Source: a virus (Duplodnaviria > Heunggongvirae > Uroviricota > Caudoviricetes). Taken from it: a stretch of DNA of 61,195 bases. Location of the stretch: the IMG/VR virus record IMGVR_UViG_2523533514_000007; one strand, 5' to 3'. Position numbers: made by a program. Of the stretch, positions 15,001-18,000 are shown piece after piece. How positions within the stretch are numbered: the first letter of the stretch is position 1; each line of letters opens with the position of its first letter.

Positions 15001-18000
15001 CATGTAAATACCGTTGGTGCTTTTTAAGGGCGAGAAATTATTACTTAACTGATTTTTAAAGTGATTTATTTTTTAAGGGGGCAGATAACAGGAGGGGATA
15101 TGCAAAGAAAAACCCGGCGCATGGGCCGGGCTATTTATCTGGTCCTGTTCTCATTCAGTAGAGTAGGGGCCAAGAAATCGCACTCCGTTGAAGTGAATAA
15201 GATGAGAAGGTGCATCAGCCACCCATACCTCTGTTTCCCATGCGATTTCACCAAGATATCGCCCCATGATGGAGCGATTTGGAAAAGCGGTCACATAGAC
15301 AAGTCCGGCTGTTGATCCGGCAAACAGCCTGGCAAGCTCAGCATGCCGCTTCCCATCAACCGGTCCATGACTGGTGACAGACTCAACCAGTAGCAGCCAG
15401 TTTTTCGCAGTAAAATGTAGCACCACATCTGGCATTTTACCGTGTGAATCCACATCAACACCTAGCCCGGCCAGCAGTGGAGCGTCGAAGTAGCCCCACT
15501 TTTCGCCAGTGTCGCCAGCATAGACCAGCACGCTACCCGGAGCAAAACGTGGGGCGAAGTCCTCTATTATGGCACGGATAAGTTCGCTGTGCTCGCCGGG
15601 ACTGAGGGTTATTTGCTGGCCCGCAGCAATTTCAACAGGGATACGATTCTGTTCGCGCTCCTTAGCATAGCGGGTAACCAGCGTTTCACGCTCGGCTAAA
15701 TAGGTTGCAAGGCTATCGTGCCATGCCGGGCTGCCGAAAGTGCGTAGCATGGACAGAGCAGCAGGTTCGATCTGATAAACAGCCTTCGGGCTGTTCACTG
15801 GGCGATCGGGCTTGTCCGGATTGTAGAGGGCTACTCCAGCAGCGCAGAACTGATGCATAGACTGGCGGCGGAATGTCTCACGAGTATTGGGTGCGTAGAC
15901 CTTGCCGTAGTGCTCCCGAACCCAATTCATGATTGGTGTAATGCCCACAAGCGGATTTTCCGCGTCGGCCCATGCTTTTCCCGGTGTGAGGTTCAGGAGT
16001 GCCAGCAAACACAAAGCAGAACGCTCATTCTGCTGCGCTCTGGGCAGGCCTAAGGATGCTATAATTTGCTGAGCGGCCTCAATATAATCATTTTGGTTGT
16101 TCATGCAGTCAGAGCTCCTAGCTTAGCGTCAATATGTTCTTGCGTGAGAGTTTCTTGTTGCATAGCCCACTTGCCAAGCTCTATCAGAGTGTCACGGCTT
16201 GGGTACTTAATCATCTTGAGGTCGGTTGCATTGACCTGTGTATGCCCGTTGAAGCGACGGAAATACTTATCCACTGCGGTAGTGTTCAGGAACACGGCCA
16301 AGCCACGGGCCAGCGCCTCGGGTAACCCATGTTTGTTCTCATGAAACACGTTCATGTGATTTTCAAATCCCAACACTGAATACTCACTGAAGGTAGCAGG
16401 ATCAACGACGCTTGCTACCACTCGGCGCTTTTCCTCCTTCGACGAGAAACGACGCACCACACAATAAAAACCGTTCGGGTAAAGCCACTTTTCTGTCTCG
16501 TCGTTGCGCATGATTGCGTTGGGTTTCTTCAAACCTTCCACAGGCCAGACAGTGCTACTCATACTCAAATGGCTCGGGTAGATCAGGGGAACAGTTCCTT
16601 CTTCTGGCATGCTGCGCAAATGAGCTTTCAGTCGGAAATCAACTATCGGTCCGGTCGATACCTTCACGCCAATATCAGCCAGCGAACATTGTACGGCAGA
16701 TGATAACTCAATGGTGCTTTTCTCGAGCGTGGTCGGCACATGAATAAACCGCTCCGAATCGTCCGGGTACACAATCTGGTCAAATGGGTGTTCGTAGGTG
16801 ACTAGGTCAAAAAAGCTATCATCGGTCGAAGTTGTGACTGTAACAGCCTCCTGACGGCCTCCACGCTCCAGGCGGATGATAATATTTTCCTGCAACACAT
16901 CGTCATCCCTGAAAGCTTTGCTACGTGATTCGAACAAATGAATATGGCGGATTGCTGCCCGCTCAAGTATGAAATTACGGAACGGACGGTAATACGGTCC
17001 GTTGCAGAAACTACGTGGGATTATGGCCACTATCTGCCCGCCAGGTGCAACCTCACCTACAGCCAGTGCAACAAAGGCGGAATACAGATTTACCGTCTCG
17101 ATACCGACAGTGCGAAGAGCCTGCCGGTGGGCTGACTGGCTATTGATCTTCTTGTAAGGCGGATTAAGTATTGCATGGGTATAACCTCGATCCTGTAGAC
17201 CTTCGGCGGTTGCCAGCTCAATATAATCCCCTTCGATGATGCGGGGCGTCACTCTCCTGTACCCGGTTAAGTGCTTCGCAAGGTGACCACACAGCTTTTT
17301 GTCGATTTCGTAGGCTGTTGCCTCGACAGACTCAAAGCCAAACTCGCCAACCAGCCAACGGTCGAGGAAGGCGCAAGACAGTGCGCCTAAACCAGCGCCT
17401 GCGTCCAGTAGACGGCAAGTTTTCATTGTGCTCGGTGGAAACAAGGAGGCCATAAAACGGGCCACGCCAGAAGGCGTCATGAACTGGCCGAACTCTGCTT
17501 TGTGTTTACGCGCGGTACGGGGAGACAGCTCGCGACGCACGCTGTCTGCGACGTCTAGCTTTTGAAGCATAACTAATCCTCTTTACGTGGCATGATGATG
17601 CCAACGTGCTTTTGACATCCTCCACATTCTTCAGGCGTGAAGGATGTCAAATCACTCTGTGAGCTCAATCAAAAGTCTCATCATTCCACTGCGATTTGAT
17701 GACCTTTCCGACAAACTGGCAGTTTTCGTTACACTCAATCATGTCGAATCGTGGGTTGAGCGGCTCCAGGTACGCTTTACCGCTCTCACGAATGAATCGT
17801 TTGAAGGTAAATTCATCGCCGTTCATTCGGGCCACGCAAAAATCGCCATCCTCGATTTCCCGTTCAGGGTCAACGAGTATCAGCATACCTTCAGGGAAGC
17901 TGGGTTTACCACCCTGCGGTGCGGTCATTGAATGCCCCTTGACCTCCAGCCAGAACGACCTGTCACTGGCTTTTGTGGTGGTGGAGATCCATTTAATCGC

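What the first reader, a model, noticed from the sequence alone, without database searches (positions are those of the whole stretch)
17612..17650. 13/14-bp inverted repeat in the 94-bp gap between cI and the methyltransferase gene
TTGACATCCTCCAC-(11 nt)-GTGAAGGATGTCAA. It is not followed by a U-tract on the transcribed (minus) strand, so it is not a simple intrinsic terminator. Candidates: a protein-binding dyad (operator controlling R-M expression independently of cI), an RNase III processing site separating cI and R-M messages, or an attenuator. Each arm contains a TTGACA -35-like hexamer, so promoter occlusion is possible.
Basis: seen in the sequence. Interest (0 to 1): 0.45.

Follow-up and report, generated by a model that had tools for sequence, protein, structure and literature searches.

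The report
Transposon-end palindrome between cI and methylase
The inverted repeat between the phage repressor gene and the restriction-modification genes is real, but it is a worn copy of a 40-base palindrome built from the right end of IS608/IS609-type (TnpA/TnpB) transposons and found scattered across bacteria, archaea, phages and plasmids, not a purpose-built switch for the restriction system.

Summary
Arms 17612-17625 and 17637-17650 pair 13/14, in the 94-bp gap between cI and the PstI-like methylase M.EcoGIII of an O104:H4-type Stx2a phage. It is the only repeat of that quality in the window. The dyad is not specific to this locus. It is a decayed 39-nt copy of a 40-nt palindrome, TTGACATCCT-[8-bp stem, TTCA/TTTA loop]-AGGATGTCAA. 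At least 150 copies with unrelated flanks occur in phages, plasmids, many bacterial phyla and archaea. The inner stem co-varies, and G·T wobbles lie on one strand. The last 30 nt match the right end of IS608/IS609-type IS200/IS605 elements: hairpin plus a 10-nt tail ending in the TCAA cleavage site. The window copy matches E. coli IS609 at 26 of 30 positions. The first 10 nt are the exact complement of that tail and replace the guide GAAT. Copies lie at gene 3' ends and at mosaic junctions. In PhiR12_3 the deletion of M and most of R ends exactly at the palindrome, and the palindrome's centre is flipped. In this window it is most likely a transposon-derived relic that forms a stable hairpin (-23 kcal/mol) in the cI-M-R transcript. 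A regulatory role is untested. How the palindromes arise and spread is unknown.

The parts
17612..17650 (+). The whole palindromic element, 39 nt here and 40 nt in the family consensus. The + strand is the 'top' strand, which carries the TTCA loop. It is a decayed solo copy of the IS608/IS609 right-end-derived palindrome.
   Evidence: It matches the last 30 nt of the E. coli IS609 right end (CCACGTCCTTCAGGGCGTGGAGGATGTCAA) at 26 of 30 positions. Related Stx phages (LC645409) carry the 40-nt form with GGGC.
17612..17621 (+). Outer left arm TTGACATCCT. It is the exact reverse complement of the 10-nt right-end tail and sits where canonical right ends carry the guide G(G/A)AT.
   Evidence: This stretch is what distinguishes palindromes from canonical right ends.
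17622..17640 (+). Remnant of the transposase-binding hairpin (CCACATTC-TTCA-GGCGTGA). It differs from the IS609 hairpin by two substitutions, a 1-nt deletion and a G-to-A change, so the upper stem is mostly lost on the + strand.
17641..17650 (+). Right-end tail AGGATGTCAA. It ends in TCAA, the right-end cleavage motif of IS608-type elements, 10 nt from the hairpin foot.
   Evidence: (PMC3201880)
17665..18378 (-). cI repressor gene. Its stop codon lies 14 nt from the palindrome.
   Evidence: HTH_3 + Peptidase_S24
16101..17570 (-). N6-adenine DNA methyltransferase M.EcoGIII (PstI/BsuBI-like, CTGCAG). Its start codon lies 41 nt downstream of the palindrome on the - strand.
   Evidence: (PMC6602927)
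15151..16104 (-). PstI/BsuBI-type restriction endonuclease. It overlaps the M stop by 4 nt.
15111..15132 (-). Intrinsic-terminator-like hairpin with a T run just after R. It is the likely end of the cI-M-R transcription unit.
17588..17603 (-). Second small hairpin (UGGCAU-CAUC-AUGCCA) between the palindrome and the ribosome-binding site of M.

Best explanation
The dyad is a solo, partly decayed copy of a dispersed 40-nt palindromic element derived from the right end (RE) of IS608/IS609-type IS200/IS605 transposons, which carry a Y1 TnpA and TnpB. A canonical RE reads G(G/A)AT-[8-bp hairpin with a T.G wobble and a TTCA/TTTA loop]-AGGATGTCAA|. It ends at the TCAA cleavage site, 10 nt from the hairpin foot. 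The palindrome keeps the hairpin and the tail, but the exact complement of the tail (TTGACATCCT) replaces the guide. This gives an 18-bp perfect stem with precise ends. The sequence relationship is shown. How such palindromes are made and inserted is not known. I infer either a templated fold-back on the RE tail or a REPIN-like mobilisation in trans by TnpA. In this phage the element sits at the seam between the cI module and the M.EcoGIII/R.EcoGIII cassette. I infer that cI, M and R are transcribed together from the repressor promoter, as lambda transcribes cI-rexA-rexB. On that view the element is carried in the mRNA as a -23 kcal/mol hairpin, 13 nt after the cI stop and 40 nt before the M start. 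Its most likely effect there is passive and REP-like. It would act as a barrier to 3' exonucleases and possibly a weak impediment to read-through or to termination of cI translation, so that cI and M/R levels can differ. At the DNA level it acts as a breakpoint for module exchange. It is not an operator or a promoter element dedicated to the R-M system. The confidence given (0.7) applies to the statement as a whole. Identity as an RE-derived palindrome is about 0.85. The passive RNA-hairpin and seam role in this phage is about 0.5.
For: Dispersed family:
Hosts include Desulfovibrio, Legionella, Streptomyces, Frankia, cyanobacteria, Chlamydiae, Chlorobi, Lachnospiraceae, Halorubrum, Natrinema and a Methanomassiliicoccales archaeon.
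- The flanks are all different.
- 106 of 139 copies are exactly 40 nt, and the loop is TTTA or TTCA.
- The six inner pairs co-vary: 115 doubly changed cells against 40 in shuffles, 0 of 500 shuffles as high.
- G.T wobbles lie on the T-loop strand 48 to 13.

Link to the transposon end:
- In L020 and L171, two copies of one tnpB element (93% identical) end at ...GGAAT-C(C/T)CCGCCC-TTTA-GGGCGGGG-AGGATGTCAA| with different flanks. L020 also has a divergent Y1 tnpA.
- Of 87 canonical REs in viral contigs with at least 1500 nt of upstream sequence, 66 have a TnpB homologue just upstream.
- E. coli K-12 IS609 (insQ) ends ...GGGAT-CCACGTCC-TTCA-GGGCGTGG-AGGATGTCAA|. The window copy matches its last 30 nt at 26 of 30 positions.
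- The geometry agrees with published IS608 rules: TCAA 10 nt 3' of the hairpin foot, and a guide tetranucleotide 5' of the foot (PMC3201880).
- In at least nine loci a palindrome and a canonical RE share the same inner stem, including imperfect stems.

Position:
- Among closely flanked copies, 28 lie between tandem genes, 17 between convergent genes and 4 between divergent genes.

Seam behaviour:
- PhiR12_3 lacks window 15468-17610. The right breakpoint is exactly the left edge of the palindrome, and the palindrome centre is inverted.
- In L006 the palindrome fills the spacer between two modules that occur separately in other plasmids.

Hairpin formation in vivo:
- A class-C-type group II intron uses the palindrome as it uses terminators.

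Transcription unit:
- No promoter-like site lies in the gap, and a terminator follows R.
- CTGCAG is fully methylated in lysogens (PMC6602927).
- The RNA hairpin has z = -5.4.
Against: - The window copy lacks every other part of the transposon. There is no tnpA, no tnpB, no omega-RNA scaffold and no left end.
- Its guide position does not fit the TnpA rule (TCCT instead of GAAT or GGAT). It is therefore not a canonical transposase substrate, and derivation from the RE rests on sequence identity alone.
- No clean filled-versus-empty site pair was found in three attempts. Insertion as a 40-bp unit is not shown.
- There are no target-site duplications and no flank consensus. This does not point to any known insertion mechanism.
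- None of 119 loci chosen for a canonical RE holds a palindrome.
- The whole cI-M region is at least 99% identical in most of the 98 phage and 147 genome hits. Conservation therefore says nothing about selection on the dyad.
- The RNA-level effect and co-transcription are inferred, not measured.
Confidence: 0.7

Rival explanations
1. The dyad is a protein-binding operator. A dimeric regulator (cI itself, a controller protein, or the HTH domain of R) binds it and controls M/R expression independently of cI, perhaps by occluding a TTGACA -35 box.
For: Each arm carries TTGACA. The dyad lies directly upstream of M. The endonuclease has an N-terminal HTH domain. Many R-M systems are autoregulated through operators (own knowledge).
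Against: No -10 element lies at 16-18 nt, and the scan found no promoter-like site in the gap. There is no controller gene. The dyad is 39 bp with an 11-nt centre, unlike 14-20-bp operators. It shares only the pR -35 heptamer with OR. The same outer arms occur in more than 150 unrelated contexts, including archaea and GC-rich actinobacteria, where this phage's proteins are absent. The arms are accounted for by the transposon tail and its complement.
Confidence: 0.05
2. The dyad is a selected RNA element of the cI-M-R operon. It would be an RNase III or other processing site, or a U-tract-less attenuator, that uncouples the cI message from the R-M message. In this view a transposon relic has been co-opted.
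For: The sense transcript forms a 16-bp perfect stem with the mismatch as G.U, -23.2 kcal/mol, z = -5.4. It begins 13 nt after the cI stop. REP hairpins at operon junctions stabilise upstream cistrons, and when close to a stop codon they can lower translation (own knowledge of the malE-malF REP and of Liang, Rudd and Deutscher 2015). Lambda uses the sib hairpin as an RNase III site (own knowledge; a sib site is annotated in HK97).
Against: No transcript data were available. The family as a whole shows no orientation bias relative to the upstream gene (30 to 30), so the hairpin is not generally an mRNA-sense signal. The stem is shorter than the roughly two helical turns of classic RNase III substrates (own knowledge). 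In PhiR12_3 the element persists after M and most of R are gone.
Confidence: 0.25
3. The dyad is a chance inverted repeat or a degenerate intrinsic terminator left from moron insertion, with no relation to transposons.
For: Markov shuffles give one such repeat in about one window in six. Morons are often bounded by terminators (own knowledge). One family member (L003) is followed by TTTT.
Against: The element shares 26 of 30 positions with the IS609 right end plus the exact complement of its tail. It has near-identical relatives with co-varying stems in hundreds of sites. There is no U-tract here.
Confidence: 0.02

Closest known systems
Right end (RE) of IS608/IS609-type IS200/IS605 insertion sequences (Y1 TnpA, TnpB/InsQ)
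   Same: Both have an 8-bp hairpin with a T.G wobble and a TTCA/TTTA loop, followed by the 10-nt tail AGGATGTCAA ending in the TCAA cleavage motif. The element boundary falls exactly after TCAA (PMC3201880).
   Different: In the palindrome the guide tetranucleotide 5' of the hairpin (GAAT or GGAT) is replaced by the complement of the tail. There is no tnpB or omega-RNA scaffold, no left end and no TTAC/TTAT target next to it. Both edges are RE termini, one on each strand.
REP / BIME elements and REPINs mobilised by RAYT (Y1) transposases
   Same: Both are short extragenic palindromes related to IS200/IS605 end hairpins, concentrated at gene 3' ends and between convergent genes. Both are multi-copy in some genomes (for example at least 5 copies with one private inner stem in a cyanobacterial MAG). 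Both can act as mRNA hairpins. REPINs are likewise built from two inverted units (PMC3116915 and PMC3333891, listed).
   Different: REPs are species-specific and carry a 5' GTAG. This family has identical outer arms across bacterial phyla and archaea. It lies largely on phages and plasmids and is rare in E. coli chromosomes outside prophages. Association with a RAYT was not examined.
PATEs (palindrome-associated transposable elements) and mini LE/RE derivatives of IS200/IS605
   Same: All are non-autonomous derivatives that keep the end hairpins. Roughly 330-nt PATEs (L030, L036, L039) and single-hairpin LE/RE fusions (HK97 between tfa and sib; L023) of the same IS family occur in the same kinds of phages.
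   Different: PATEs and the mini elements keep a true left-end flank (TTAC or TTAT | ...GCGCCGTAAA-) and so fit the TnpA guide rules. The 40-nt palindrome does not.
Intrinsic terminators and integron attC sites as hairpin targets of class C group II introns
   Same: A class-C-type intron sits right after the 3' arm of the palindrome in P1-like and F-type plasmids, exactly as its relatives sit after terminators.
   Different: There is no U-tract. The attC R-box consensus GTTRRRY is absent and there are no extrahelical bases. The sequence, not only the structure, is conserved.

Membership tests
IS200/IS605 (IS608/IS609-type) transposon right end | Subterminal hairpin (IP) of the family type: 8-bp stem, T.G wobble, TTCA/TTTA loop on the top strand | tested here: inconclusive
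   The family consensus palindrome has it. The window copy keeps the TTCA loop and CCAC/GTG but has lost most of the upper stem.
IS200/IS605 (IS608/IS609-type) transposon right end | Cleavage motif TCAA 10 nt 3' of the hairpin foot, marking the element boundary | tested here: met
   AGGATGTCAA lies at 17641-17650. The same tail and boundary occur in 124 canonical REs and in IS609. The rule is from PMC3201880.
IS200/IS605 (IS608/IS609-type) transposon right end | Guide tetranucleotide (GAAT or GGAT) immediately 5' of the hairpin foot | tested here: not met
   The window and all palindromes have TCCT there.
IS200/IS605 (IS608/IS609-type) transposon right end | tnpB 3' end and omega-RNA scaffold upstream, and a left end with a TTAC/TTAT target further upstream | tested here: not met
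   The window has no TnpA or TnpB similarity, no omega-RNA motifs and no left-end motif near the dyad.
REP/REPIN-like non-autonomous palindromic repeat | Extragenic, with a bias toward gene 3' ends | tested here: met
   Flanking genes are tandem in 28 cases, convergent in 17 and divergent in 4. Many copies lie within 20 nt of stop codons. In the window the copy lies 14 nt after the cI stop.
REP/REPIN-like non-autonomous palindromic repeat | Dispersed copies with unrelated flanks and proliferation within genomes | tested here: met
   One cyanobacterial MAG has at least 5 copies and one Oxalobacter MAG has 3, each group sharing an inner stem. The window holds only one copy.
REP/REPIN-like non-autonomous palindromic repeat | Mobilisation in trans by a cognate Y1 transposase | not testable with these tools
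   Only co-occurrence is available: matched inner stems of a palindrome and an IS RE in the same locus in at least 9 cases.
Intrinsic (Rho-independent) terminator | GC-rich hairpin immediately followed by a U-tract on the transcribed strand | tested here: not met
   The - strand continues AAAGCACG and the + strand ATCACTC. The scan does not call it a terminator.
R-M controller (C-protein) operator / C-box | A small HTH controller gene next to the R-M genes and a short dyad overlapping its promoter | tested here: not met
   No such ORF lies between cI and the terminator after R. No promoter-like site lies in the gap.
RNase III processing site (lambda sib-like) | A long dsRNA stem cleaved by RNase III, with an effect on message stability | not testable with these tools
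   A 16-bp stem is predicted. No cleavage data are available.
Integron attC site | R''/R' boxes RYYYAAC...GTTRRRY, extrahelical bases, and a cassette context with an integron integrase | tested here: not met
   The ends read TTGACAT...ATGTCAA, the stem is perfect, and no recurrent neighbouring gene was found.

The most novel reading that the evidence does not exclude
The 40-nt palindrome is a minimal mobile unit in its own right. It would be a single hairpin bounded on both strands by the TnpA right-end cleavage motif, produced from resident IS608/IS609-type elements and moved in trans by their Y1 transposase through a non-canonical RE/RE reaction, analogous to REPINs. By landing at gene 3' ends it would provide portable seams at which phages and plasmids gain, lose and swap cassettes such as the M.EcoGIII/R.EcoGIII system. 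The deletion in PhiR12_3 with the flipped centre would be one example.
Probability: 0.2. Interest if true: 0.75.

Novelty: new variant of a known kind. Interest (0 to 1): 0.55.

Why it matters
For this phage, the result removes a tempting but unsupported idea, namely a dedicated operator or attenuator for the clinically relevant Stx-phage R-M system. It replaces that idea with a testable one: a transposon-derived hairpin at the cI/R-M seam.

More broadly, it points to a compact palindrome with precise ends and near-identical sequence in bacteria, archaea, phages and plasmids. The element is built from the right end of TnpB-carrying IS200/IS605 transposons but does not obey the known TnpA guide rule.

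If these palindromes are made and moved by the transposase, they extend the repertoire of single-strand 'peel and paste' transposition. They would also offer an intermediate between insertion-sequence ends and domesticated REP/REPIN elements. If they mark recombination seams, they would help explain mosaicism around defence cassettes.

They are also a practical annotation flag. A strong intergenic dyad with TTGACA arms in a phage or plasmid may be this element rather than a promoter or operator.

Tried and rejected
- Rfam: no family matches the dyad, at gathering threshold or at E up to 1. The only hit was a spurious MIR394 match at E = 0.28.
- Literal-sequence and keyword literature searches found nothing on this palindrome.
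- Sigma-70 promoter reading of the TTGACA arms: there is no -10 element and no scan hit.
- Integron attC: the R-box consensus is absent.
- Resemblance of CTTGACATCC to 16S rRNA near position 980 (recalled from memory, not checked with any tool). I treated it as coincidence once the transposon end explained the sequence.
- CsrA site, anticodon-loop mimic and SD/anti-SD sequestration: considered and dropped for lack of support, and because there is no orientation bias toward the mRNA strand.
- A recurrent neighbouring gene (dedicated recombinase, RT or defence gene): all-against-all BLAST of flanking ORFs in 27 and then about 140 loci found none. Only scattered integrases, GGDEF/EAL proteins and a few TnpB turned up.
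- Target-site duplications and flank consensus: none.
- The palindrome as the left end of the IS: rejected. True left ends are TTAC/TTAT|..GCGCCGTAAA-hairpin-ATATAAGGCGC, and none of 119 RE-bearing loci has a palindrome.
- The group II intron as the source of the palindrome: rejected. Its relatives sit after ordinary terminators, which marks it as class-C behaviour.
- Filled-versus-empty site comparison: three attempts (IncI trbC region, P1-like lydA region, Klebsiella plasmid module) gave only mosaic junctions, not clean empty sites.
- A second copy flanking the R-M cassette: none in the window.
- Donor-site footprint models: rejected because no TTAC/TTAT precedes the palindromes.
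Full report
WHAT THE WINDOW IS. The region is 100% identical to the Stx2a-converting phage of E. coli O104:H4 (P13374, phiON-2011). It is at least 99% identical to most of 98 phage records and 147 E. coli genomes. On the minus strand the order is as follows:
- cI (17665-18378; HTH_3 + Peptidase_S24);
- a 94-bp gap;
- an N6-adenine methyltransferase (16101-17570; Eco57I-type domain);
- a BsuBI/PstI-type endonuclease (15151-16104);
- a terminator-like hairpin with a T run (15111-15132).
The R-M pair is the published M.EcoGIII/R.EcoGIII system (CTGCAG). CTGCAG is 100% methylated in lysogens that carry this system (PMC6602927).

THE OBSERVATION. The dyad is there as described: TTGACATCCTCCAC-(11 nt)-GTGAAGGATGTCAA at 17612-17650. 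It extends to 15-nt arms with 14 of 15 paired. It is the only repeat of that quality in the 61-kb window. Shuffled sequence gives one in about one window in six, so the statistics alone are weak. On the transcribed minus strand the mismatch is G.U, and the RNA folds into a 16-bp stem (-23.2 kcal/mol, z = -5.4). No U-tract follows on either strand. The promoter scan finds nothing in the gap.

THE DYAD IS NOT LOCAL. A search with the 94-bp gap found matches that cover only the dyad, on unrelated E. coli plasmids and in phage PhiR12_3. A search with the dyad alone hit 110 plasmid records. The aligned copies read TTGACATCCTCCAC-GTCCTTCAGGGC-GTGGAGGATGTCAA, with unrelated flanks:
- after IncI trbC;
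- between the tail-fibre and lydA genes of P1-like plasmids;
- in IncF plasmids.
A pattern scan of viral contigs gave 38 loci, about half with flanks unrelated to the Stx phage and with G+C from 32% to 69%. These covered Proteobacteria, Desulfovibrio, Actinobacteria, Cyanobacteria, Chlamydiae, Chlorobi, Nitrospirae, Firmicutes, Thermomicrobium and archaea (Halorubrum, a Natrinema plasmid, Methanomassiliicoccales).

ANATOMY OF THE FAMILY.
- 106 of 139 copies are exactly 40 nt. The centre is TTTA (68 copies) or TTCA (30 copies) on one strand.
- The outer 12 bp were fixed by the search. The six inner pairs were not fixed, and they co-vary strongly: 96.7% of cells paired, 115 doubly changed cells against 40 in shuffles, 0 of 500 shuffles as high, and slid controls near background.
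- G.T wobbles lie on the T-loop strand 48 to 13. They concentrate at one pair, 16-25, with U.G 19 against G.U 2. One strand is therefore the folding strand.
- Orientation relative to the abutting upstream gene is 30 to 30. This argues against a general mRNA-sense signal.
- Copies are intergenic and favour gene 3' ends: 28 tandem, 17 convergent, 4 divergent. Several ORFs end in the TGA of TTGACA.
- There is no flank consensus, no target duplication and no recurrent neighbouring gene.
- Rfam has no matching family. Literature searches found nothing on the palindrome.

THE LINK TO IS200/IS605 RIGHT ENDS. In viral contig L020 a partial copy forms the end of an IS. On the tnpB sense strand it reads ...GGAAT-CCCCGCCC-TTTA-GGGCGGGG-AGGATGTCAA|. 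The element has tnpB (OrfB_IS605 + TNB domains) and a divergent Y1 tnpA. A second copy of the same element (TnpB 93% identical) ends at the same base next to a different flank.

A scan for GGAATC-N14-24-GGAGGATGTCAA hit the 120-stretch limit in viral contigs. Of 87 such ends with at least 1500 nt of upstream sequence, 66 have a TnpB homologue ending 6-235 nt before the terminus.

E. coli K-12 IS609 (insQ plus a tnpA pseudogene) ends ...GGGAT-CCACGTCC-TTCA-GGGCGTGG-AGGATGTCAA|. This right end and its omega-RNA region match in 4967 of 5426 E. coli genomes.

The left ends of the family read TTAC or TTAT|CC..GCGCCGTAAA(G/A)-hairpin-ATATAAGGCGC. This geometry matches the published IS608 rules (PMC3201880):
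- left cleavage site and target TTAC, with guide AAAG;
- right cleavage site TCAA, 10 nt 3' of the hairpin foot;
- guides are the four bases 5' of the foot.

The 40-nt palindrome therefore equals the last 30 nt of this right end, preceded by the exact complement of the 10-nt tail in place of the guide. In at least nine loci a palindrome and a canonical right end share the same inner stem, even when that stem is imperfect (L129).

The same phage and plasmid world also holds roughly 330-nt PATEs (L030, L036, L039). It also holds single-hairpin LE/RE fusions, for example in HK97 between tfa and the sib site.

THE WINDOW COPY. On the + strand, which carries the T loop, it reads TTGACATCCT-CCACATTC-TTCA-GGCGTGA-AGGATGTCAA. 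Against the IS609 end it has two substitutions and a 1-nt deletion in the hairpin, and one G-to-A change. That gives 26 of 30 matching positions. A subset of Stx2a phages keeps the 40-nt form with GGGC (L174). The upper stem that the transposase would bind is largely gone on the + strand. The window holds no tnpA, tnpB, left end or second copy. It is a decaying solo copy.

BEHAVIOUR AT SEAMS. PhiR12_3-type prophages share cI, the 14-nt spacer and both outer arms, including the same G-to-A change. The 12-nt centre is the reverse complement of the window's centre. Homology to the window stops exactly at the left edge of the palindrome. Window 15468-17610 (all of M and about two thirds of R) is replaced by 160 nt of unrelated DNA.

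In Klebsiella and E. coli IncF plasmids the palindrome fills the spacer between two convergent modules. Each module occurs separately in other plasmids. In P1-like plasmids the homology to P1 ends about 20 nt from the palindrome.

Centre flips also occur among copies within one cyanobacterial MAG.

GROUP II INTRON. In P1-like and F-type plasmids the right arm is interrupted at ...GGAGGATGT|GTGCG by a group II intron (Rfam D1-D4 hits). Relatives of that intron sit immediately after ordinary intrinsic terminators, which is class-C behaviour. The intron therefore treats the palindrome as a hairpin target on the T-loop strand. This shows the hairpin forms in vivo. It does not explain where the palindrome comes from.

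WHAT IT MOST LIKELY DOES HERE. Three lines of evidence support one cI-M-R unit read from the repressor promoter, as lambda reads cI-rexA-rexB (inference, own knowledge for lambda):
- no promoter-like site in the gap;
- a terminator after R;
- full methylation in lysogens.
The element is then an intercistronic RNA hairpin, 13 nt after the cI stop and 40 nt before the M start. A second small hairpin lies before the M ribosome-binding site. By analogy with REP elements it could protect the cI cistron from 3' exonucleases. It could also slightly hinder termination of cI translation or read-through (own knowledge, not tested). An operator or promoter-occlusion role is not supported.

WHAT REMAINS UNEXPLAINED. 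I could not establish how a right end becomes a perfect palindrome with two RE termini, or how that palindrome reaches new sites without target duplication or target motif. A templated fold-back on the tail would explain why the left arm is always the exact complement of the tail. It would also explain why the outer arms are identical wherever this IS family lives. This is an inference only. Three searches for clean empty sites failed.

VERDICT. The element is a new variant of a known kind: an IS200/IS605-derived, REP/REPIN/PATE-like palindrome. It has unusually wide distribution and an unknown mode of origin. For the regulation of this R-M system it is probably incidental.

Noticed in passing
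window 14451-14638 (- strand): Rfam matches to C4 antisense RNA (77 bits) and the isrK Hfq-binding RNA (62 bits) lie just downstream of the R-M terminator, overlapping or adjoining a 261-aa ORF (13749-14534). That ORF's counterpart in PhiR12_3 carries an 'antirepressor protein' note. This looks like a P1/P7-type c4-ant immunity module inside a lambdoid Stx phage.
   Followed up: no
L031 6625-6659 and L034 3930-3964 (same cI-M context as window 17612-17650): In two viral contigs the loop reads GCCTGCAGAAT instead of GCCTGAAGAAT. A single change creates CTGCAG, the recognition site of the adjacent R-M system, inside the palindrome loop just upstream of M.
   Followed up: no
L008 2038-2640; L007 from 2039: A class-C-type group II intron fragment is inserted into the 3' arm of the palindrome (...GGAGGATGT|GTGCGCCC) in P1-like IncY and F-type plasmids. 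Full-length relatives with ltrA sit after canonical terminators (L167, L169).
   Followed up: yes
L173 (phage HK97) about 1492-1542, between tfa and the annotated sib site: A single-hairpin mini element fuses an IS609-type left-end flank to a right-end tail: TTAT|CCGGTGCGCCGTAAAA-CCCCGTCC-TTCA-GGGCGTGG-AGGATGTCAA|. It is not annotated in the HK97 record. The same type occurs in HK106 and L023.
   Followed up: partly
window 17588-17603: A 6-bp hairpin (TGGCAT-GATG-ATGCCA on the + strand) lies between the palindrome and the methylase ribosome-binding site. On the - strand an 11-codon ORF (AUG inside GGAGGAUG ... UAA) runs from the right arm to just before that site. Neither was examined further.
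   Followed up: no
L015, L018, L025, L030, L032, L039, L042 and others: Flanking ORFs often terminate in the TGA of the palindrome's TTGACA, sometimes on both sides of a convergent pair. The element seems to have replaced the last codons of genes and to supply their stop codons.
   Followed up: partly
L002 3106-3179, next to the IncI-plasmid palindrome at 3001-3041: The sequence beside this palindrome matches fragments annotated as a type II restriction endonuclease in other plasmids. A canonical IS609-type right end with an omega-RNA remnant follows at 3243-3360. This is a second case of the palindrome lying next to (remnants of) an R-M gene.
   Followed up: no
L099, L101, L110, L118, L123 (one cyanobacterial MAG): At least five copies share a private inner stem (AGCGTC...GACGCT) and an unusual GGAG/CTCC centre, in both centre orientations and with different flanks. 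This suggests recent proliferation within one genome.
   Followed up: partly
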